From assembly GCA_031280685.1 (NCBI GenBank), contig JAITGM010000035.1, positions 107,282-171,281 of the forward strand: a DNA stretch of 64,000 nt. The letters are read 5' to 3'. How positions within the stretch are numbered: the stretch's first letter is position 1; each line of letters opens with the position of its first letter. The notes beneath the pieces were generated by a model that saw only the letters and a list, made by a program, of their open reading frames with translations, did no database searches and was not told the origin of the DNA. A program made the position numbers and the translations under genes. Positions 15,337 through 64,000 of the stretch are shown piece after piece. This stretch comes from Christensenellaceae bacterium (GTDB lineage: Bacteria; Bacillota; Clostridia; Christensenellales; UBA1750).

Positions 15337-15365
15337 TTGAAAAAACCTGAAAAGCGTGCTATACT
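15337..15365 (+). promoter_or_regulatory. extended -10 promoter driving the ORF-free structured region
   Basis: TTGAAA (15337-15342), 17 nt, TGC-TATACT (TG extension at 15357-15358, -10 at 15360-15365). Confidence 0.6.
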
Positions 15366-15371
15366 GGCACA

Positions 15372-15998
15372 AGATTGGTGGTGCAGTATCCTAGTCGGGG
15401 AAATCGCTTCTGAAGGCGGGGCTAAAAATCCGCCAAAGGGCACATCGATGAAGCTTCTGGTGTTGGCTTTGAACGCCCAGTTTGGGGTTGATGCTGGAAG
15501 ATAAGAGGGAAGGGCGATCCGCAACGGCATGTGGGCGTAGACCCTTCTTTCGTGGAGGCCTCTGTGCGGTGAGTGGCCTAAAAATCACTTACTCCTGAGG
15601 ATTAAACCTGCAATGCGGTGATCAAAAGCTGTGTGCAGCGTAGCCTGCCTTGAGCGGCTGAAATGGGATTGGGGAAAATGCCTTGGGCGCGGCCGATGAG
15701 CTCGGGCCTGCCCGCGTGGAATCGCCCCATGAAAATGAAGACGCAAAAGAGGCTAGGACGCGATGGAACTGCTGAGGAAAGCTCCTAGGCTGAAATGGTA
15801 TGCCGGGGATTACAGTGTGGTCTAAGTGGCAATCCGGTCATGCGCGCGGTAACGCCGCTTGGCGCGCTTCAAAGGGAAACCGCCCCTGCGGCGACGGGGG
15901 GCAGCGCGCCGGGAAATCCTACCGGACCTCATGCCGCAAGGTTTATCCGGCATATCACCACCATATTCATGACTTAAGGGGTGCTTTTTGCGCCCTTT
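15372..15998 (+). ncRNA. ole: OLE (ornate, large, extremophilic) RNA candidate; boundaries approximate
   Basis: A ~630-nt stretch with no credible ORF, its own promoter and many long-range complementary segments (e.g. 15861-15868/15903-15910, 15931-15936/15948-15953). It is followed immediately by an OapA-like membrane ORF and dxs-tlyA-nadK-argR-recN, the known OLE synteny. It was not compared to the Rfam model. Confidence 0.7.
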
Positions 15999-55290: not shown

Positions 55291-55311
55291 AACATGCCCG
55301 GAGGAAAAGCC

Positions 55312-56484
55312 ATGCCCTTTGATTTTGACAGAATCACCCCGCGGAAAGGCACCGCGTCGCTCAAATACGACTTTCACGAGCGCCGAGGCAAGCCGAAGGA
55401 TGCCCTGCCCCTTTGGGTGGCGGATATGGACTTTCCCGCGCCGCCGGCTGTGCTGCAGGCCTTGCGGGCGCGCGTGGGGCACGGTATCTTTGGCTATACC
55501 CAGCCCGGGCCCGAGTATTTCCTTACCCTTAAGCGCTGGTTTTCGGGGCGTTTCGGCTGGGAAGTGGAGGAGGACTGGCTCGTCAGGACGCCAGGGGTCG
55601 TCTTCGCCCTCTCGATGGCGGTGCGTGCCTTCACAAAACCCGGCGAAGCGGTGCTCATCCAGGAGCCCGTTTATTACCCATTCTCAAGCGTGGTGCACAA
55701 AAACGGCAGAAAGCTCGTCGTCAACCAGCTCGCCTTCGACGGCGAGCGCTACTCCATCGACTTTGACGATTTCGAGGGGAAGATCGCCGCCGAAGGCGTG
55801 AAGCTCTTCATCCTTTGCAATCCGCACAACCCGGTCGGCCGGGTTTGGCGCGAGGAGGAACTGCTTCGCCTGGGTGAAATCTGCAAGCAGCACGGCGTTT
55901 TGGTCGTGGCTGACGAAATCCATCAGGACTTCGTTTACGAGGGGCACCGGCACCTCGTTTTTGCGGCGCTAAGGCCCGAATTTTCCTCCTTTAGCCTAAC
56001 CTGCACCGCGCCTACGAAGAGCTTCAACCTGGCAGGCCTGCAGATTTCGAACATCTTCATTCCAAACGGGGAACTGCGCCAAGCCTTTGCGCGGGAAATC
56101 GACGCGACCGGCTATGACGAGCCCAGTCTCATGGGGGTTCTGGCCTGCATGGCTGCCTATGAGCAGGGCGGCCCCTGGCTGGATGAGCTGAAGGCCTATT
56201 TAAAGGGAAATCTCGAGTTTTTGCGGGCCTTCTTGACGAAAATGCCGCAAACGCGGCTCATCGAGCCTGAAGGCAGCTATTTGGTCTGGCTGGACTTTCG
56301 GGCGACGGGTATGGAGGGCGAGAAACTCGACCGTTTCGTGCTCGAGGAAGCCGGTCTTTGGCTCGATGCGGGCGAGATGTTCGGAAAGGGCGGCGAAGGC
56401 TTCCAGCGCGTGAACATCGCCTGCCCGCGTGCCCTGCTGCAAGAGGCGCTTGAGCGCCTTGAAGCCGCCCTACGGCGGCTCTGA
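55312..56484 (+). CDS. patB: MalY/PatB-type C-S lyase (class I/II aminotransferase fold)
   Basis: Start at MPFDFDRITPRKGTASLKYDF (GGAGGA RBS). ...LWVADMDF...NPHNPVGRVW...TKSFNLAGL. Confidence 0.8.
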   Translation: MPFDFDRITPRKGTASLKYDFHERRGKPKDALPLWVADMDFPAPPAVLQALRARVGHGIFGYTQPGPEYFLTLKRWFSGRFGWEVEEDWLVRTPGVVFALSMAVRAFTKPGEAVLIQEPVYYPFSSVVHKNGRKLVVNQLAFDGERYSIDFDDFEGKIAAEGVKLFILCNPHNPVGRVWREEELLRLGEICKQHGVLVVADEIHQDFVYEGHRHLVFAALRPEFSSFSLTCTAPTKSFNLAGLQISNIFIPNGELRQAFAREIDATGYDEPSLMGVLACMAAYEQGGPWLDELKAYLKGNLEFLRAFLTKMPQTRLIEPEGSYLVWLDFRATGMEGEKLDRFVLEEAGLWLDAGEMFGKGGEGFQRVNIACPRALLQEALERLEAALRRL

Positions 56485-56516
56485 CGCCGGCGCGAAAAAC
56501 GAGGAGAGTTTTGCGA

Positions 56517-57046
56517 ATGCCCCTGCCTATTTCCATCGAACTGCATTTTGATCCCCAATCCACGGCCCCAACCCAGGCCTATATCGAACAGGCGGCGGAG
56601 ACCAGCGGGAACGACTACATGCCGCAGCATCGCATTCCCCCGCACTTGACGCTGGCCTTCTTTGGAAACCGACCAATTGGGATTGCCCTCGAGCAGGTCG
56701 TGGCGCGCAAGGGGCTCTTTCGCGCAGAACGGCTCGTTTTCCCCGTGATTGCGGCGTTCGTGCCCAGCATGCTCTTCCTGGTCCCTAAGCAGAGTGAATG
56801 CCTTGCGATGCTCAACCATGAGATTTGCACTGGTTTGGGCGAAATCGCAAGCCCCGCCGACCCGTTTTATTTGCCCAAAAGCTGGGTTCCGCATCGCTCG
56901 ATCGCGGTTCGGCTTGAGTGCGTGCGCTAGGCTCGGCGTTTGCAGCGCTCGCCGGGCGGTTCAGGCCGCTGGCCGCGACGATCGCGAGCGTTTCGGTCAT
57001 CAAATGCGAGCCCTATAGCGAAACGGTTTGGGAGTATAAGCTATGA
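56517..57046 (+). pseudogene. 2H phosphoesterase (LigT-like) gene with a frameshift near 56918-56930
   Basis: Two HxT/S motifs (PPHLTLAF, VPHRSIAV), then a stop at 56930. The C-terminal VRALGSAFAALAGRFRPLAATIASVSVIKCEPYSETVWEYKL continues in another frame to 57046. The junction sits in GTGCGTGCGC. Confidence 0.5.
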
Positions 57047-57218
57047 GATGGCGCGGGAGGCGTCTTGCTCCGCGTCTTTCCGCCGCAGGCTGCCGATCTA
57101 GCCGCAGGCTGCTCTTCTCGCGCGGGCGATGCGCACCCTTCGGCTTTTCAGCGTTGTTACGACGGATCTGCGACCCCGCCTCCTCGGCTGACTTTGGTGT
57201 GGTTCACGCCCCGCAAAA

Positions 57219-57247
57219 CTTGACGCGCCGCGCGCTTTCGATTATGA
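57219..57247 (+). promoter_or_regulatory. sigma-A type promoter upstream of a small ORF and murG
   Basis: TTGACG (57219-57224), 17 nt, TATGAT (57242-57247). Confidence 0.5.
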
Positions 57248-57464
57248 TGGCGGAGGAAAAGCCCATTGTAAGATTGAATGCGCGCGATTTTTTGCGTGTT
57301 TCCGCATCCTTTTGAAGGGAGAAGAGCGCCATGGCGAGCAAGAACAAGACGAGCTTGAACGAGGGGGCGAAGAATGCTGCGGCTTTGCGCGGCATAAGCC
57401 TGTTATTGAAAGGCGGCAACGGCCCTTTGATCCTACTACAAACAGCGTAAAGGAGATTGCGCCA

Positions 57465-58529
57465 TTGAAACGCATCGTGCTCACCGGCGGCGGGACCGCC
57501 GGGCATGTCACCGCAAACCTCGCCCTGATTCCCCATCTGCTGCAGCGGGATTGGGAGATTCACTATATCGGTTCCGAAAACGGCATGGAAAGGGAGCTGG
57601 TTTCGCAGGTGCAAGGCGTGGAATATCACGCCATCGCCACGGGCAAGCTGCGCCGCTATTTTGACTTAAAGAACCTTTCGGATCCCTTCCGGGTCATCAA
57701 GGGCGCGGCGCAGGCGGCTTCCCTTTTGCGCAAGCTGAAGCCTGATTTGGTGTTTTCCAAGGGGGGCTTCGTTTCGGTGCCGGTGGCGCTCGGAGCCTTT
57801 TTCAATGGCGTGCCGCTAATCTGCCATGAATCCGACCTGAGTCCAGGCCTTGCCAACAAGCTTTGCCAGCCCTTTGCCAAGAGGGTTTGCACGGCCTTCC
57901 CAGAAACGGCAAGGCTTTTGAAAAAGGGCGTTTATACGGGCACGCCGCTGCGCGACGAGCTCTTTTTTGGCACTAAAAAAGAAGGGCTGGCCCGCTTTTC
58001 GCTCGATGAAGGCAAGCCGGTTTTAATGGTCACGGGCGGCAGTTCGGGCGCGCTTGCCATCAACAACGCCCTGCGCGAGGCGCTACCATCCCTTTTGCAG
58101 GAATTTCAGGTGCTGCACCTCTGCGGCAAGGGAAACCACTCCGCGCTTTCGATGCGCGGTTACGTAGAGCTTGAATACCTGAGCGACGGCATGGCGGAAG
58201 CCTTCGCCTGCGCGGATCTGCTGGTTTCGCGGGCTGGGGCAAATACGCTCTGCGAGATTTTGGCGCTTCGCAAGCCGAATTTGCTGATCCCTTACCCGAA
58301 GGGATCAACGAGCAGGGGCGACCAAATCGAAAACGCGGCTTCGTTCGAGCAGCGCGGCCTTTCGATGGTGCTGCGGCAAGACGAGCTCAGCGCCGAAACC
58401 CTGGCCGCCGGGGTAAGGGCCCTTTATGCGGGGCGCGAAGGCTTCATCAACGCGATGTGCCGCGAACCCTCGGGCAACGGGCTGAACGCCGTGCTTGAGA
58501 TCATTGAAGAGAGCGCCAAGAAAAGGTAG
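57465..58529 (+). CDS. murG: UDP-N-acetylglucosamine--N-acetylmuramyl-(pentapeptide) pyrophosphoryl-undecaprenol N-acetylglucosamine transferase
   Basis: TTG start 9 nt after AAGGAG. KRIVLTGGGTAGHV, ...HESD..PGLANK..., ...RAGA.T..E. 354 aa. Confidence 0.9.
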   Translation: MKRIVLTGGGTAGHVTANLALIPHLLQRDWEIHYIGSENGMERELVSQVQGVEYHAIATGKLRRYFDLKNLSDPFRVIKGAAQAASLLRKLKPDLVFSKGGFVSVPVALGAFFNGVPLICHESDLSPGLANKLCQPFAKRVCTAFPETARLLKKGVYTGTPLRDELFFGTKKEGLARFSLDEGKPVLMVTGGSSGALAINNALREALPSLLQEFQVLHLCGKGNHSALSMRGYVELEYLSDGMAEAFACADLLVSRAGANTLCEILALRKPNLLIPYPKGSTSRGDQIENAASFEQRGLSMVLRQDELSAETLAAGVRALYAGREGFINAMCREPSGNGLNAVLEIIEESAKKR

Positions 58530-58625
58530 AGGCGAAGGAGAAAAGGGCTTGCACGGCCAAATCGAGCGAGACGCCGCGTATTTGCGCCGCCTGAAGGGTT
58601 TCATCTAAAAAGAATACGGGATTAA

Positions 58626-58964
58626 TCGAGCGGGAGGACTTTTTCGACCAGCCGTGCGGAGTTCTTCTTTCAGCAATGGAACGGCTTGCGGGAAAACCCG
58701 CGCGATGGGGCGACTGCCCGCATAGACGCGCTTTCTTCAAGGAACCGATCAAGGATCCTGGGGCGGGCCGGAAGGCTTGCCCTATTTTCTTGCCGCTGCA
58801 AGGGCGAGGATGCCGACTTTTGCATCACCCACGGCGATGCCGGGGGGCAATGTCGTCACAAACGGAAAGCGGCACTTCCTCGTGGATTGGGACGCGCCGC
58901 AATCGAAGAGTATTTTGACTGTTGGATTGAAGACGATCTTCGCTTTGCCGACCAACTGCCCTGA
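58626..58964 (+). pseudogene. remnant of an APH/choline-kinase-type phosphotransferase gene
   Basis: The catalytic-loop text is spread over two frames: ...GEDADFCITHGDAGG then NVVTNGKRHFLVDWDAP, then back to AAIEEYFDCWIEDDLRFADQLP*. There is no intact N-terminal lobe, RBS or start. The frame switch lies in a G-run (58843-58848). Confidence 0.45.
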
Positions 58965-59050
58965 AGCGCGAAAAGAGTGCGGGGACGGAAAGGTTCTGCC
59001 CGCCCCCATGCCGTATGATGGAAGCATCCTAAAGGGAAGGGGGAAGGGCG

Positions 59051-60364
59051 ATGGGGGCAAGCGAAATCATTCGCTGGAGCCTGGACTTCATCGAAAGCAC
59101 ACTTAAGGCCGAAATCAGCCCGCGGGAGCTGGCCGAAAGGGCGGGCTATTCCCTGCGGCAGTTCGGCGGCCTGTTTTTGCGGGCAACGGGTTTGCCGCCG
59201 AAGAGCTACATCGTAAAAAGGCGGCTTTACCATGCCATCATTGAGATTTCGGCCGGGCGCACGGCTGCCGACGTGGCCGCGGAATACGGCTTTGGCAGCT
59301 ACGCTGGGTTTTACAAGGCCTTCGTCCGGGGCTATGGTTGCTCCCCAAGGCGCTTCCTCGCCCTATATGGGAAAGTTGCGCCAAAGGAGGAAGACAAGAT
59401 GGAAAAGAAGGCATTGAGCGAGGCAGAGCTGCGCGCGGCATTGGCGAGTTGGGGGCTTGCACAAGATCTGCCCATTCGGGAAGTGATGGTTATGGGCGGC
59501 ACAAAAGCCGCCGGCGATGTTTGGGCGATCGGGAAGGAATACATCTTGAAGGCGGGGGACAGGGAAAGGCTGCAAAGAGGCCTTTTCATCGCAAACGCGC
59601 TGAAAGCGCATGGATTTTTGGCGGTGATTCCGATCAAAACCAGCGATGGCGCGGAAATGACCGAGGGGAAGCCCGCTTTCACCCTTACGCGAAAGCTGAA
59701 GGGGATGCCGCTTTCGCCAGCCAAGCGACTTGGCACCGGCCGGGAGGGCTATGGCGAGGAGTATGGGCGAGGGCTGGCGAAGCTCCATCTTGCCTTGGCT
59801 GCCATCGAGGAGGAGATTCAGCCCATGGAAGAGGATCTGGCCAAGCAGCTCACGGGTTGGGCGCTGCCCGCGCTCCGCCTGCAAAACGAGCAATGGAAGA
59901 TGGGGCTAAACGATGGCTTTTTCGAAGGCTTCGCCGCCGAAATTGGCGAATCCCTCCCCGCCCTGCCAAAGCAGCTCATTCACCGCGACCCGAACCCGGG
60001 TAATCTCCTCTTTGAGAAAGGGAAGCTGAGCGGCTTTATCGACTTTGAACTTAGCGTGCGGGGAATCAGGCTTTGGGATCCTTGCTATTGCGCCACTGGG
60101 ATCTTGAGTGAAGCCGAGAGCCTGCCGGAGGCGGAAAGGGGCTGGATTGAGCTTTTGCGTGGGATCTTGCACGGCTATGACGAGATAAACCCACTGACCG
60201 CAGCCGAAAAGCGCTCGGTCTTCCCCGTGCTGTGTTCCATTCAGGCGATTTGCATCAGCTACTTCGAAAGCCGGGAGGAATTCAGGGAGCTTGCGAAGAA
60301 AAGCAGGGAAATGCTGCGCTTCATCGTAGGCGTTGAGGAAAAAATCCGGCAAATTCCCTCTTAA
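59051..60364 (+). CDS. fusion protein: N-terminal AraC-type HTH domain plus C-terminal APH-like phosphotransferase (kinase-fold) domain
   Basis: 437 aa. HTH_18-like ISPRELAERAGYSLRQFGGLF....G..PKSYIVKRRL..A...I....T..DVAAEYGFGSYAGFYKAF....G.SPR.F; then ...VWAIGKEYILKAG... and the catalytic loop LIHRDPNPGNLLF...GFIDFE. Confidence 0.75.
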   Translation: MGASEIIRWSLDFIESTLKAEISPRELAERAGYSLRQFGGLFLRATGLPPKSYIVKRRLYHAIIEISAGRTAADVAAEYGFGSYAGFYKAFVRGYGCSPRRFLALYGKVAPKEEDKMEKKALSEAELRAALASWGLAQDLPIREVMVMGGTKAAGDVWAIGKEYILKAGDRERLQRGLFIANALKAHGFLAVIPIKTSDGAEMTEGKPAFTLTRKLKGMPLSPAKRLGTGREGYGEEYGRGLAKLHLALAAIEEEIQPMEEDLAKQLTGWALPALRLQNEQWKMGLNDGFFEGFAAEIGESLPALPKQLIHRDPNPGNLLFEKGKLSGFIDFELSVRGIRLWDPCYCATGILSEAESLPEAERGWIELLRGILHGYDEINPLTAAEKRSVFPVLCSIQAICISYFESREEFRELAKKSREMLRFIVGVEEKIRQIPS

Positions 60365-60481
60365 ACCGAGAAGTTTTGGGCTATGGGCGCGCTCGGAATT
60401 GACTTCCGGGCGCGCTTCTTGTATCATAATGAGTGAACTTTTGCGCGATGCTTTTGAGTTTTGCCGTGGAGGAAAAATGTA

Positions 60482-61018
60482 TTGAACCTGCCAAACGCGC
60501 TAACGGTTTTGAGGCTTTTGCTAGTGCCCGTGGTGCCGATCCTGTTCGCCCGCGCGGAACTCCTCTGGGCGCTTTTCGTGTTCCTGCTGGCCTCGCTGAC
60601 CGACCTGCTCGACGGCTACCTGGCAAGGAGGCTGAACCAGATCACGACCTTTGGCCAGCTTTGCGATCCCCTGGCCGATAAGCTCATGCTCATCGCCGTG
60701 CTGGCGAGCCTATATTGGGTGGGAAACATCCCGCTTTGGCTGGCGATTGCGACCATCGTGAAGGAACTCACCATGATCGTGGCGGCTTCGCTGCTCTATC
60801 ACGAAGGCGGCGTAATCCCGGCGAACTGGTTAGGCAAGGCCGCGACCATTGCCTTTTTACCGGCCGTGCTCTCGGCTTTTTTTGCAGCGTATTTGGCTCC
60901 GTGGCACATCGTACTGCTCGCGCTGGCGACCCTGTTGGCTTACGTGGCTATGACGCAGTATGGCATCCTGTTTTTAAAGCTCATGCGGCGAAAAAGGGGC
61001 GGCGATCATGGCGCTTGA
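60482..61018 (+). CDS. pgsA: CDP-diacylglycerol--glycerol-3-phosphate 3-phosphatidyltransferase
   Basis: TTG start (MNLPNALTVLRL) 8 nt after GGAGG. CDP-alcohol phosphatidyltransferase motif DLLDGYLARRLNQITTFGQLCDPLADK. Confidence 0.88.
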   Translation: MNLPNALTVLRLLLVPVVPILFARAELLWALFVFLLASLTDLLDGYLARRLNQITTFGQLCDPLADKLMLIAVLASLYWVGNIPLWLAIATIVKELTMIVAASLLYHEGGVIPANWLGKAATIAFLPAVLSAFFAAYLAPWHIVLLALATLLAYVAMTQYGILFLKLMRRKRGGDHGA

Positions 61019-61514
61019 GATCCGCGCGCCGCTGGAAAGGGAGCTTTTTGACCTGCCAAATCTTTATTTAAGATGCTGGCAGAGCACTTACCGAGGGATA
61101 TTCCCCCAAAACTACTTGGACTCCCTGACGCAAGGCGATATGCAGGAAGAATACTTGGGTGAAGAAAACGCACCGAACACCAAGGTGCTGGTCGCTCTGG
61201 ACGACGGAAAAATGGCCGGCGTTTCGACCTACGGCCCACCGCGCGAGGAGATGCCGCCTGGGTATGGGGAACTGAAATCGATCTATCTGCTGCCCGAGCA
61301 TCGGGGCAAGGGAATTGGCCAGGCCTTGCTGCACCGGGTTTTGCAGGCCCTGCGGAATGAGGGCTATTTTTGGGCCTTTCTTTATGTGCTTGAAGAAAAC
61401 CGCGGGGCAAGGCGCTTTTATGAGCGAGAGGGCTTTTGCGCTAAGGGGGAACGGCACCTATTTGAAATCGAGGGCGAGCGCCTTTTTGATTTGACCTATG
61501 AAACCAAACTATAG
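61008..61514 (+). CDS. GNAT family N-acetyltransferase
   Basis: 168 aa. LLPEHRGKGIGQALLHRVLQALRNEGY...NRGARRFYEREGF. Confidence 0.8.
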   Translation: MALEIRAPLERELFDLPNLYLRCWQSTYRGIFPQNYLDSLTQGDMQEEYLGEENAPNTKVLVALDDGKMAGVSTYGPPREEMPPGYGELKSIYLLPEHRGKGIGQALLHRVLQALRNEGYFWAFLYVLEENRGARRFYEREGFCAKGERHLFEIEGERLFDLTYETKL

Positions 61515-61549
61515 AACCCGGCAATGACCGGAGCCGAAGGGAGAGCGCT

Positions 61550-62761
61550 ATGAAAAAGAGAAAACGGGGCTTGTTGATCGGGTTGTGCGTGGGCGTTGGG
61601 CTGCTGCTCGCATGCGGCATCACAGTCTTTGCCTTCGCAAACTACATTCAAAATCCCGAAAACGCTTTCAGCGAGCTGGAAATTCGGGCGACACCAACGC
61701 CGGAGCTTACCGCCGAGCCAACAATAGCCCCTTTGGCATCTTCCACGCCGGAGGCAACCGCTACGCCGGATCCTCCAGAAACCCCGCCGGACTACGAATT
61801 CGAAAAAAAGCGCATCAATATCTTGCTGTTGGGCGCGGATTCTTCGGTGGAGCGCGTAGAGGCTGGCTTGAACTTCAGAACGGATACGATGATCCTCGTT
61901 TCGGTAAACTTCACCGATAAAAAAGTTGATATGATCTCGATCCCCAGGGATAGCTATGTACGCATCAACGGCGGCAACACGCGCAATAAGATCAACGCAG
62001 CCTTCACCTTCGGCGGAGGAGCCAAAAAGGATGGCTACCAGTACGCGATGAACACCGTCAAGGAAGTCTTGGGCGTGCAGGTCGATTATTACGTCGGCTT
62101 TGGCATGAATGTGGTCAAAAAGGTTGTGGACGCGGCGGGCGGCGTGGATTACGATGTAGACATCGCCTTCACCATGAACGGCCGCAGGCTGGAAAAAGGC
62201 CTGCAGCACTTAGACGGCCAGCAAGTGCTCGACTACTGTCGCTTCCGCCACAGCGGACGGGGGGATGTGGATCGTGTCGAGCGTCAGCAAAAGATTCTCT
62301 TCGCACTATTCGAGCAGATGCTGAGCACGAAGCAGATCATGAACATCCCCAAGATCTATCAGGCTGTGCAGGAGGAGATCGACACCAACCTGGACTTCAC
62401 TCAAATCGCCACGCTTGCCTATTTCGCAAAGGATCTTTCTATGGCGGATCTTCAGCGCTACATGCTGCCAGGCGATGGCCGCTATATCGGCACGACCTCG
62501 TACTATATCATCTACCAGGAACAAAAAAACAAGATGGTGAAGGAAATCTTCGGTATTGAGGGCCCCTTTGACTCCTCCATGACCTTAGCTGCCATCGAAA
62601 GCGCCTATTTAGCCTCGCATCCGGAGCAAGACCCCGAGGCATCTTCGCCGGGTGCGGAAGGAGAGCCAGAAAATCCCGGCGCTATGCCGCCGCCAGATGA
62701 TGGCTACATCTTCGAACCGGATCCGCCTGAAGAGGGCGGCCAAGGGGGTATAGCGAATTAA
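61550..62761 (+). CDS. LytR-CpsA-Psr (LCP) family cell-envelope phosphotransferase
   Basis: 403 aa. TM anchor, INILLLGADS....R.DTMILVS......K.DMISIPRDSYV, ...LDGQQVLDYCRFRH...GD.DR..RQQ. Acidic Pro-rich tail. Confidence 0.88.
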   Translation: MKKRKRGLLIGLCVGVGLLLACGITVFAFANYIQNPENAFSELEIRATPTPELTAEPTIAPLASSTPEATATPDPPETPPDYEFEKKRINILLLGADSSVERVEAGLNFRTDTMILVSVNFTDKKVDMISIPRDSYVRINGGNTRNKINAAFTFGGGAKKDGYQYAMNTVKEVLGVQVDYYVGFGMNVVKKVVDAAGGVDYDVDIAFTMNGRRLEKGLQHLDGQQVLDYCRFRHSGRGDVDRVERQQKILFALFEQMLSTKQIMNIPKIYQAVQEEIDTNLDFTQIATLAYFAKDLSMADLQRYMLPGDGRYIGTTSYYIIYQEQKNKMVKEIFGIEGPFDSSMTLAAIESAYLASHPEQDPEASSPGAEGEPENPGAMPPPDDGYIFEPDPPEEGGQGGIAN

Positions 62762-62877: not shown

Positions 62878-62906
62878 TTGACAAACCATTTTTGCTTGGG
62901 TATAAT
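62878..62906 (+). promoter_or_regulatory. consensus sigma-A promoter of the tRNA cluster
   Basis: TTGACA (62878-62883), 17 nt, TATAAT (62901-62906), with an A-rich UP-like tract upstream. Confidence 0.75.
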
Positions 62907-62938: not shown

Positions 62939-63014
62939 GGGAGCATAGCTCAGCTGGGAGAGCACTTGCCTTACAAGCAAGGGGTCACAGGTTCGAGCCC
63001 TGTTGTTCCCACCA
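62939..63014 (+). tRNA. tRNA-Val (anticodon TAC), CCA encoded
   Basis: Hand-folded cloverleaf: acceptor GGGAGCA/TGTTCCC, anticodon loop CTTACAA, T-arm ACAGG-TTCGAGC-CCTGT, 3' ACCA. Confidence 0.9.
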
Positions 63015-63019
63015 AATGT

Positions 63020-63096
63020 GGCCCGGTAGTTCAGTTGGTTAGAATGCCAGCCTGTCACGCTGGAGGTCGAGGGTTCGAGCCCCTTCCGGGTCGCCA
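63020..63096 (+). tRNA. tRNA-Asp (anticodon GTC), CCA encoded
   Basis: Acceptor GGCCCGG/CCGGGTC, anticodon stem-loop CCAGC-CTGTCAC-GCTGG, T-arm GAGGG-TTCGAGC-CCCTT, 3' GCCA. Confidence 0.9.
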
Positions 63097-63101
63097 AATA
63101 A

Positions 63102-63177
63102 GCCTGGGTAGCTCAGTTGGTAGAGCAACAGACTGAAAATCTGTGTGTCGATGGTTCAATTCCGTCCCTAGGCACCA
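63102..63177 (+). tRNA. tRNA-Phe (anticodon GAA), CCA encoded
   Basis: Acceptor GCCTGGG/CCTAGGC, anticodon stem-loop ACAGA-CTGAAAA-TCTGT, T-loop TTCAATT, 3' ACCA. Confidence 0.9.
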
Positions 63178-63182
63178 TGTAT

Positions 63183-63257
63183 GCGGTAGTAGCTCAGTGG
63201 TAGAGTGCCACCTTGCCAAGGTGGATGTCGCGAGTTCGAATCTCGTCTACCGCTCCA
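63183..63257 (+). tRNA. tRNA-Gly (anticodon GCC), CCA encoded
   Basis: Acceptor GCGGTAG/CTACCGC, anticodon stem-loop CCACC-TTGCCAA-GGTGG, T-arm GCGAG-TTCGAAT-CTCGT, 3' TCCA. Confidence 0.9.
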
Positions 63258-63316
63258 AAAGGCAGAGGATTGCCCGCGTTGTTTTTACGTGGGCAATCTA
63301 AATCTTGATAAAAAAC

Positions 63317-63390
63317 GGTGCCATGGCCAAGTGGTAAGGCAAAGGTCTGCAAAACCTTCACCGCCGGTTCAAATCCGGCTGGCACCTCCA
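63317..63390 (+). tRNA. tRNA-Cys (anticodon GCA), CCA encoded
   Basis: Acceptor GGTGCCA/TGGCACC, anticodon stem-loop AAGGT-CTGCAAA-ACCTT, T-arm GCCGG-TTCAAAT-CCGGC, 3' TCCA. Confidence 0.9.
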
Positions 63391-63394
63391 CATC

Positions 63395-63474
63395 GCCGCG
63401 AGCTGAGTTAAAGTTCGCGGCGTTTGATTTCCTTTTCGCCTTCGCCGCGAACCAGGCTGGTTCGCGGCGTTTTT
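63395..63474 (+). terminator. two successive terminator hairpins sharing the same stem sequence after tRNA-Cys
   Basis: CGCCGCGA...TCGCGGCG (63395-63422) followed by TTTGATTT. CGCCGCGAACCA/TGGTTCGCGGCG (63443-63469) followed by TTTTT. Confidence 0.75.
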
Positions 63475-63611
63475 GGCAGACGGGGGAGCGACTTCATTGC
63501 GGCATAAGACAAGAGCGTGCTTCGTGTCAACCTTTGCTGGGAGAGCGAATCATTATGAGCGGTCATTCGCAGTGAATGAATAGAAAAAACGCTGTTGTTT
63601 TACAAAAACTA

Positions 63612-63640
63612 TTGAAAATATAGGCAAAGCAACGTATAAT
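63612..63640 (+). promoter_or_regulatory. sigma-A type promoter in the AT-rich spacer upstream of cas3
   Basis: TTGAAA (63612-63617), 17 nt, TATAAT (63635-63640). Confidence 0.55.
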
Positions 63641-63675
63641 AAAATATATAATGAAGTGAAGCGAGGACGAAGAGC

Positions 63676-64000
63676 ATGGAACTCACTGCTCTGGATGCGT
63701 TATGGGCAAAGACAGCGGATGGTCGCCGCGAGGCACTCTCTCTGCTTGATCATATGCGCGAGACGGGCGAAGTTGCCCAAAAGATGTGGCGGGAATGGCT
63801 GCCTATTGGCCTAAAAAGCTTTCTTGCACGCCTATCGGGCATTGAAACAGCCGAAAAGCTCTTTTTTTTCCTAGCCTTTTGCCACGACCTCGGCAAGGCT
63901 TCGCCCCCGTTTCAACTTAAAAAGGCTCCTAATATTGATCCTGAGCTGCGCGAGCGGGTGCTCGACGCCGGCTTTTCAGATCCTATTTTGGAAGATGCCG
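63676..64000 (+). CDS. cas3: CRISPR-associated Cas3, N-terminal HD nuclease domain (gene continues beyond the right edge)
   Basis: Own translation: MELTALDALWAKTADGRREALSLLDHMRETGEVAQKMWREWLP...AEKLFFFLAFCHDLGKASPPFQLKK. The W-A-K-T ... L-x-x-H ... hydrophobic-HD-x-GK ... FQ layout is typical of Cas3 HD domains. Not in the ORF track (no stop in window). Confidence 0.7.
   Translation, partial: MELTALDALWAKTADGRREALSLLDHMRETGEVAQKMWREWLPIGLKSFLARLSGIETAEKLFFFLAFCHDLGKASPPFQLKKAPNIDPELRERVLDAGFSDPILEDA

What the first reader, a model, noticed from the sequence alone, without database searches (positions are those of the whole stretch)
63391..64000. A CRISPR-Cas module begins at the right edge, directly after the tRNA cluster
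Seen: after tRNA-Cys and two terminators the sequence turns visibly A/T-rich (63590-63675) and carries a TTGAAA-17-TATAAT promoter. An ORF then opens at 63676 whose first 108 residues show the Cas3 HD-domain layout (LWAKT...LLDHM...FFLAFCHDLGKASPPFQ). Established: type I systems are marked by Cas3, and tRNA genes are frequent borders of acquired islands. Inference: the rest of cas3, the Cascade genes and probably a CRISPR array lie just beyond the window. Subtype and completeness cannot be judged here.
Basis: partly seen in the sequence, partly recalled or inferred. Interest (0 to 1): 0.55.

Follow-up and report, generated by a model that had tools for sequence, protein, structure and literature searches.

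The report
Start of a type I-E cas3 gene
The last 325 bases of the window are the start of an ordinary cas3 gene of the type I-E kind of CRISPR-Cas immune system. It sits just after a tRNA gene cluster, and the rest of the system very probably lies beyond the window edge.

Summary
An ORF opens at ATG 63676 and runs off the window end after 108 codons. It matches Pfam Cas3_HD (71 bits, cut-off 23.1) and TIGR01596 (45.1 bits, cut-off 43.45). His26 and His70-Asp71 align with His37 and His83-Asp84 of Thermobifida fusca Cas3.

The subtype can be proposed as I-E. The best defence-system profile is Cas3e. All four Cas3 hits among solved structures match proteins I know as type I-E. All eight full-length relatives tested are Cas3e.

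The true downstream DNA could not be retrieved. In 160 related loci:
- 130 of 132 with enough sequence continue into the helicase.
- 97 of 97 carry the other I-E genes.
- 55 of 61 show a CRISPR array, in the seven I checked about 9 kb after the cas3 start.

The fragment's third-position G+C is 0.52 against 0.76 for host genes, which fits horizontal acquisition.

A decayed cas3 stub cannot be excluded, since such stubs exist among the relatives (about 2-5%). This is a divergent (at most 52% identity) but ordinary member of a well-known family. Interest is low.

The parts
62878..62906 (+). Promoter of the tRNA operon, TTGACA-17-TATAAT (12 of 12). This is context, not part of the cas module.
62939..63390 (+). 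tRNA cluster Val(tac)-Asp(gtc)-Phe(gaa)-Gly(gcc)-Cys(gca). It forms the left border of the low-GC3 cas3 region.
   Evidence: The same cluster, in the same order and 90% identical, lies 3.2 kb upstream of a type I-E cas3 in locus L071.
63394..63432 (+). First intrinsic-terminator-like hairpin after tRNA-Cys: 11-pair stem, 7-nt loop, tail TTTGATTT.
   Evidence: It folds at -21.4 kcal/mol, z -5.0.
63443..63474 (+). Second terminator-like hairpin: 12-13-pair stem, tail TTTTT. Both stem arms are near-copies of those of the first hairpin (TCGCCGCGAG/TCGCCGCGAA on the 5' side, GTTCGCGGCGTTT identical on the 3' side).
   Evidence: It folds at -23.0 kcal/mol, z -4.1.
63590..63675 (+). A/T-rich (32.6% G+C) upstream region of cas3. 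It holds a sigma-70-like promoter (-35 TTGAAA 63612-63617, -10 TATAAT 63635-63640) and a Shine-Dalgarno GAGG at 63663-63666.
   Evidence: for the promoter scan, for G+C, for the sequence. Promoter function is inferred, not shown.
63676..64000 (+). 5' end (108 codons) of cas3: the N-terminal half of the Cas3 HD nuclease domain, of type I-E kind. The ORF is cut by the window edge.

Best explanation
Window 63676-64000 encodes the first 108 residues of a Cas3 nuclease-helicase of a type I-E CRISPR-Cas system. This is the N-terminal part of its HD metal-dependent nuclease domain.

The gene has its own A/T-rich sigma-70-type promoter and ribosome-binding site. Two tandem terminators insulate it from the upstream tRNA operon.

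By analogy with every sufficiently long related locus, the ORF should continue for about 850-1000 codons into an SF2 helicase. It should then be followed on the same strand by cas8e, cas11e (cse2), cas7e, cas5e, cas6e, cas1e and cas2e. A CRISPR array would be expected about 9-10 kb beyond the window end.

Mechanism, from established knowledge of type I-E systems: Cascade carrying a crRNA binds a matching protospacer and forms an R-loop. Cas3 is recruited, nicks the displaced strand with the HD site, and degrades the DNA processively using the helicase.

Shown here: gene start, HD-domain identity, conserved metal-ligand residues, Cas3e affinity and atypical composition. Inferred: everything beyond base 64000, promoter activity, and that the system is functional.
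For: - **Curated profiles.** Pfam Cas3_HD scores 71 bits against a cut-off of 23.1. TIGR01596 scores 45.1 against 43.45.
- **Subtype profile.** The best PADLOC profile is Cas3e at 49.8 bits. The best profile of any other subtype (Cas3b) scores 18.9 bits.
- **Solved structures.** The Cas3 hits are 4q2c (E 1.4e-9), 4qqw/6c66 and 3sk9. I know all of these as type I-E proteins.
- **Metal ligands.** His26, His70 and Asp71 align with His37, His83 and Asp84 of T. fusca Cas3, counted from the 6c66_G alignment. They are invariant among the 11 aligned relatives.
- **Full-length relatives.** The eight tested (846-1005 aa) all score 574-704 bits on Cas3e.
- **Closest genome relative.** L002 carries cas3-cas8e-cas11e-cas7e-cas5e-cas6e-cas1e-cas2e(DEDDh fusion), and every gene is confirmed by a profile.
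- **Survey of 160 related loci.** 130 of 132 continue into the helicase. 97 of 97 with >=9.5 kb carry >=6 of the 7 other I-E genes. 55 of 61 loci of >=19 kb have a CRISPR array; it starts about 9.2-9.5 kb after the cas3 start in the seven inspected.
- **Composition.** GC3 of the fragment is 0.519 against 0.758 +/- 0.039 for 28 host ORFs. None of 376 host 108-codon windows is as low.
Against: - The real downstream sequence was not obtained. The helicase, Cascade genes and array are inferred from relatives that are only 33-52% identical over about 100 residues.
- The 64 kb of the window upstream holds no CRISPR array.
- Three related loci show that a cas3 5' stub can persist alone. L123 has a 134-aa Cas3_HD stub followed by heme/cobalamin genes. 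L126 is frameshifted. L060 has the HD part only, next to a run of N.
- The subtype call rests on 108 residues.
- The promoter is only a consensus match.
Confidence: 0.85

Rival explanations
1. The ORF is a decayed remnant or an orphan. On this view it is a truncated cas3 5' end, or a lone cas3, with no working Cascade genes or array behind it, left after loss of the system.
For: - Precedents exist among the relatives. L123 has a 134-aa ORF matching only Cas3_HD profile positions 1-78, followed directly by hemB, cbiK, hemC and hemD-type genes.
- L126 has a frameshifted HD part with no helicase within 3 kb. L060 has the HD part only, with no cas genes in 7.7 kb, but it contains 300 N.
- The window shows only the part of the protein that survives in such stubs.
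- No CRISPR array lies in the 64 kb upstream.
Against: - Such cases are rare: 2 of the 132 loci with >=3 kb after cas3 lack the helicase, plus L123, which that count missed. None of the 97 loci with >=9.5 kb lacks the operon.
- The 108 codons are intact, with a clean start, a Shine-Dalgarno sequence and a promoter.
- All conserved residues are present.
Confidence: 0.08
2. The ORF encodes a stand-alone HD nuclease (Cas3'', the split-cas3 arrangement), or a Cas3 of another type I subtype (I-A, I-B, I-C, I-G and so on), rather than a fused I-E Cas3.
For: - TIGR01596 is named 'Cas3'' endonuclease'.
- Generic Cas3-HD profiles of PADLOC score nearly as well as Cas3e: 46.8 and 45.1 bits against 49.8.
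- Only the HD part is visible.
Against: - Subtype-specific profiles other than Cas3e score at most 18.9 bits.
- All eight full-length relatives tested are fused HD-helicase Cas3e.
- 130 of 132 related loci continue into the helicase, and every operon recovered is I-E.
- All Cas3 hits among solved structures are I-E proteins.
Confidence: 0.04
3. The ORF is a chance reading frame, or a generic HD-superfamily phosphohydrolase unrelated to CRISPR.
For: The general Pfam HD model gives a weak hit of 18.8 bits, below its cut-off of 22.
Against: - Cas3_HD scores 71 bits, E 1.9e-19, far above its cut-off.
- The tested relatives are all Cas3.
- The Cas3-typical WAK and HDxGK motifs are invariant.
Confidence: 0.01

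Closest known systems
Type I-E Cas3 (Cas3e): E. coli YgcB-type HD nuclease fused to an SF2 helicase. Solved examples are Thermobaculum terrenum Cas3 (PDB 4q2c) and Thermobifida fusca Cas3 (4qqw, and 6c66 with Cascade).
   Same: - N-terminal HD domain with the same motif order: W-A-K, then His (motif I), then H-D-x-G-K (motif II).
- His26, His70 and Asp71 align with T. fusca His37, His83 and Asp84.
- The best subtype profile is Cas3e.
- cas3 is the first gene and has its own promoter, as in the related loci.
   Different: - Only 108 residues are visible.
- Identity to any representative protein is at most 52%, and at most 48% to a full-length one.
- Similarity to solved structures is modest: E 1.4e-9 for 4q2c and 5e-3 for T. 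fusca.
- The helicase and C-terminal domain are unseen.
Cas3'' stand-alone HD nucleases (TIGR01596 family; for example Thermus thermophilus TTHB187, PDB 3sk9)
   Same: It shares the same HD fold family. TIGR01596 is passed at 45.1 bits against a cut-off of 43.45, and 3sk9 is hit at E 0.022.
   Different: The relatives of this fragment are almost all fused to the helicase: 130 of 132 loci and all eight full-length relatives tested.
Defence islands next to tRNA genes
   Same: - cas3 begins 285 nt after tRNA-Cys, and its GC3 is 0.52 against 0.76 for host genes.
- L071 has the same five-tRNA cluster, followed by BREX remnants (the C-terminal half of PglZ and an N-terminal stub of BrxL) and then a full I-E system.
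- L045 has tRNA-Cys 208 nt before its I-E cas3.
   Different: - No integrase, and no direct repeat of the tRNA 3' end beyond 10-nt chance matches, is seen in the 610 bases available.
- Only 11 of 125 related loci, several of them redundant, have a tRNA within 1 kb upstream of cas3. The association recurs but is not defining.

Membership tests
Cas3 HD domain (Pfam PF18019 Cas3_HD; NCBIfam TIGR01596 cas3_HD) | Profile score above the curated cut-off | tested here: met
   PF18019 scores 71 bits against 23.1, covering profile positions 1-88 of 207. TIGR01596 scores 45.1 bits against 43.45, covering positions 1-58 of 178. Both matches stop at the window edge, not inside the protein.
Cas3 HD domain (Pfam PF18019 Cas3_HD; NCBIfam TIGR01596 cas3_HD) | Metal-ligand residues of the HD site: motif I His and motif II His-Asp | tested here: met
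   His26 and His70-Asp71 align with His37 and His83-Asp84 of T. fusca Cas3. They are invariant in alignment A1. That these residues bind metal in T. fusca Cas3 is from my own knowledge of the published structure.
Cas3 HD domain (Pfam PF18019 Cas3_HD; NCBIfam TIGR01596 cas3_HD) | The remaining HD ligands (later His, His-His and Asp motifs) | not testable with these tools
   They lie beyond residue 108, outside the window. The source contig could not be retrieved.
Full-length Cas3 (signature protein of type I CRISPR-Cas) | SF2 (DEAD/DEAH-type) helicase continuation after the HD domain | not testable with these tools
   The window ends at codon 108. By analogy, 130 of 132 related loci with >=3 kb continue into the helicase.
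Type I-E CRISPR-Cas | Cas3 of the I-E clade (Cas3e profile best) | tested here: met
   PADLOC Cas3e scores 49.8 bits, and the next subtype-specific profile (Cas3b) scores 18.9 bits. All eight full-length relatives tested score 574-704 bits on Cas3e. The call rests on 108 residues.
Type I-E CRISPR-Cas | Cascade genes cas8e (cse1), cas11e (cse2), cas7e, cas5e and cas6e, plus cas1e and cas2e, next to cas3 | not testable with these tools
   These would lie beyond the window edge. The upstream ORFs inspected (55294-62761) look like ordinary cell-envelope and metabolic genes. In relatives, 97 of 97 loci with >=9.5 kb have at least 6 of the 7 genes. L002 is fully annotated.
Type I-E CRISPR-Cas | CRISPR array (repeats of about 28-29 nt, period of about 61 nt) at the locus | tested here: inconclusive
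   No array is present anywhere in the 64-kb window. In all seven inspected related loci that carry an array, one starts about 9.2-9.5 kb after the cas3 start, which here would be outside the window.
tRNA-flanked horizontally acquired island | Base composition or codon usage deviating from the host | tested here: met
   GC3 is 0.519 against 0.758 +/- 0.039 for host ORFs. None of 376 host windows of equal length is as low. Total G+C is 0.531, in the lowest 2.1% of host windows. The sample is only 108 codons.
tRNA-flanked horizontally acquired island | Integrase gene and a direct repeat of the tRNA 3' end marking the island borders | tested here: inconclusive
   Neither is seen in 63391-64000. 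The far border would lie outside the window.

The most novel reading that the evidence does not exclude
This Cas3 N-terminus has no relative above about 52% identity among 1.84 billion representative proteins. It has none above 47% in the 160 genome and metagenome loci fetched. It could therefore head a divergent branch of type I-E with a non-canonical gene set. It could also be a cas3 recruited into a different defence island inserted at the Val-Asp-Phe-Gly-Cys tRNA cluster, a site that also borders a BREX-remnant plus I-E island in L071. Nothing seen here points positively to either; they are simply not excluded, because the downstream DNA is missing.
Probability: 0.04. Interest if true: 0.35.

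Novelty: new member of a known kind. Interest (0 to 1): 0.1.

Why it matters
It matters little beyond annotation. The finding tells us that this organism very probably carries a type I-E CRISPR-Cas system. The organism appears to be an anaerobic Bacillota-like bacterium, judging from the OLE RNA and the closest relatives. The system was probably acquired horizontally and placed next to a tRNA operon. That is useful for host-phage linking through spacers once the contig is extended. It opens no new question.

Tried and rejected
**Attempts to recover the real downstream sequence all failed.**
- A word-indexed protein search with the 108-aa fragment found nothing.
- Back-translated peptide scans of genome contigs and metagenome contigs found no copy.
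- Looking up the last complete upstream gene (the LytR-CpsA-Psr protein, 61550-62761) gave only a 5.9-kb Logan contig from SRR14710902. That contig ends about 227 nt after the gene, near the start of the tRNA cluster. A 50-200 kb contig is on record but was not returned.
- A literature search for that run accession found nothing.

**Searches for a CRISPR array inside the window were all negative.**
- Tandem Repeats Finder.
- Direct-repeat search at up to 120 nt spacing.
- My own k-mer spacing scan.

**Ideas considered and dropped.**
- The two terminator hairpins as degenerate CRISPR repeats. There are only two copies 47-49 nt apart, each followed by a T tail, directly after a tRNA operon. They behave as tandem terminators.
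- Synteny between the window and L071 upstream of the shared tRNA cluster. No significant protein matches were found.

**Not attempted.**
- Structure prediction of the fragment. Half a domain would give an unreliable model and would add nothing to the profile evidence.

Full report
**1. The observation**

The region reads as the first-stage reader described it.
- ARAGORN and Rfam both find five tRNA genes on the + strand: Val 62939-63014, Asp 63020-63096, Phe 63102-63177, Gly 63183-63257 and Cys 63317-63390.
- A perfect TTGACA-17-TATAAT promoter at 62878-62906 drives them.
- Two terminator-like hairpins follow tRNA-Cys, at 63394-63422 and 63443-63469. They fold at -21.4 and -23.0 kcal/mol, better than all 200 shuffles in each case.
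- Both stem arms of the two hairpins are near-copies (TCGCCGCGAG/TCGCCGCGAA, and GTTCGCGGCGTTT twice), so they look like a local duplication.
- The stretch 63590-63675 is 32.6% G+C in a 59.2% G+C window. It holds TTGAAA-17-TATAAT at 63612-63640, matching 11 of 12 positions.
- GAGG at 63663-63666 lies 9 nt before ATG 63676. An in-frame TGA at 63652-63654 with no other start codon between fixes the start.

**2. What the ORF is**

The fragment passes the curated cut-offs of both Cas3 HD models.
- Pfam PF18019 scores 71 bits against 23.1, E 1.9e-19, over profile positions 1-88 of 207.
- TIGR01596 scores 45.1 bits against 43.45.

Among defence-system profiles the best is Cas3e at 49.8 bits. The best profile of another subtype (Cas3b) reaches 18.9 bits.

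Among solved structures, four of the five hits are Cas3 proteins:
- 4q2c, E 1.4e-9.
- 4qqw and 6c66, both Thermobifida fusca Cas3.
- 3sk9, Thermus thermophilus TTHB187.

From my own knowledge these are all type I-E proteins.

Counting along the 6c66_G alignment, His26 pairs with His37, and His70-Asp71 with His83-Asp84, of T. fusca Cas3. From my own knowledge of that structure these are metal ligands of the HD site. They are invariant, together with W10, K12, G73 and K74, in an alignment with ten relatives. The later ligand motifs lie beyond the window.

**3. Relatives**

An exhaustive HMMER search of 1.84 billion representative proteins gives 668 relatives at E<=1e-3. The best is a 162-aa fragment at 52% identity. 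The best full-length ones (846-1005 aa) are 41-48% identical. All eight full-length ones tested score 574-704 bits on the Cas3e profile across the whole protein. The gene is therefore a fairly divergent but unmistakable member of the I-E Cas3 clade.

**4. What lies beyond the edge**

I could not obtain the true continuation.
- The fragment has no copy in the word-indexed protein collection, in one genome per GTDB species, or in the JGI metagenomes.
- The last complete upstream gene is found only on a 5.9-kb Logan contig that ends near the start of the tRNA cluster.

I therefore asked what follows cas3 in relatives. I fetched 80 genome loci and 80 metagenome loci, which are 33-47% identical to the fragment.
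- The closest genome locus, L002 (a Eubacteriaceae MAG), carries cas3, cas8e, cas11e, cas7e, cas5e, cas6e, cas1e and a cas2e-DEDDh fusion in a row. Each gene is confirmed by a profile.
- Using these proteins as tblastn probes, 130 of 132 loci with >=3 kb after the cas3 start continue into the helicase.
- 97 of 97 loci with >=9.5 kb carry at least six of the seven other I-E genes.
- A simple spacing scan finds a CRISPR array in 55 of 61 loci of >=19 kb. In the seven inspected it starts about 9.2-9.5 kb after the cas3 start.
- The window itself has no array. That fits a layout with the array downstream.

The exceptions set the size of the main rival.
- L123 has a 134-aa ORF matching only the first 78 positions of Cas3_HD, followed by hemB, cbiK, hemC and hemD-type genes.
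- L126 is frameshifted.
- L060 shows only the HD part, next to a run of N.

A stub like that of L123 would look exactly like what the window shows, so a remnant cannot be excluded. Its frequency among relatives is about 2-5%.

**5. Island context**

- Third-position G+C of the fragment is 0.519, against 0.758 +/- 0.039 for 28 long ORFs of the window. None of 376 host 108-codon windows is as low. This supports foreign origin, with the caveat of a small sample.
- tRNA adjacency recurs but is not general. 11 of 125 related loci, several of them redundant, have a tRNA within 1 kb upstream of cas3.
- L071, a Clostridia MAG, has the same Val-Asp-Phe-Gly-Cys cluster, 90% identical. The cluster is followed by BREX remnants (the C-terminal half of PglZ and an N-terminal stub of BrxL) and then a complete I-E system with an array.
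- L045 has tRNA-Cys 208 nt before its cas3.
- No integrase or tRNA-end repeat is visible in the 610 bases available.

**6. Mechanism**

From established knowledge of type I-E systems, crRNA-guided Cascade forms an R-loop on a matching target next to a PAM. It then recruits Cas3. The HD site nicks the displaced strand, and the helicase reels in and degrades the DNA.

The visible part here is the first half of that HD site. A separate promoter for cas3, upstream of the Cascade operon, is the usual I-E arrangement. The promoter here is only a consensus match.

**7. Verdict**

I can also add the subtype (I-E) and the composition evidence. This is a new but ordinary member of a very well-known family. 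Nothing in the visible sequence is surprising, and interest is low.

Noticed in passing
window 15362-15977 (+): There is a full-length OLE (Ornate Large Extremophilic) RNA here: Rfam RF01071, 476 bits, model positions 1-616 of 616. From my own knowledge OLE RNA is restricted to anaerobic or extremophilic Bacillota, so it hints at the host lineage.
   Followed up: no
window 63267-63298 (+), in the 59-nt spacer between tRNA-Gly and tRNA-Cys: A strong 13-pair hairpin lies here: -22.5 kcal/mol, z -5.4, with none of 200 shuffles as stable. It has no T tail on the + strand. In L071 the same two tRNAs are only 5 nt apart, so the hairpin is an insertion in this lineage. Its role is unknown.
   Followed up: partly
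window 63393-63425 and 63442-63472 (+): The two terminators after tRNA-Cys have near-identical stem arms on both sides (TCGCCGCGAG/TCGCCGCGAA, and GTTCGCGGCGTTT twice), 47-49 nt apart. They look like a tandem duplication of one terminator.
   Followed up: partly
L071 6376-12739: The same Val-Asp-Phe-Gly-Cys tRNA cluster as in the window is followed here by BREX remnants on the minus strand. These are the C-terminal half of PglZ (profile positions 385-855 of 855) and an N-terminal stub of BrxL (positions 5-161 of 680). A complete type I-E system with an array comes next. This tRNA cluster may be a recurrent border of defence islands in related Clostridia.
   Followed up: partly
L123 9998-15805: A 134-aa remnant of the Cas3 HD domain sits directly upstream of heme/cobalamin biosynthesis genes (ALAD, CbiK, porphobilinogen deaminase, HemD-methylase), with no other cas gene in 10 kb. 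It is an example of a decayed I-E locus.
   Followed up: partly
L002 18241-19116: In the closest genome relative, Cas2e is fused to a DEDDh exonuclease domain: 291 aa, Cas2e profile on residues 1-117 and DEDDh on residues 130-286. This is a fusion I know from some type I-E systems. Whether the window's system has it is unknown.
   Followed up: no
window 61550-62761 (+): The LytR-CpsA-Psr protein just upstream of the tRNA cluster occurs with identical sequence on a Logan contig from run SRR14710902. That sample therefore holds the same or a very close strain and could be used to extend the locus.
   Followed up: partly
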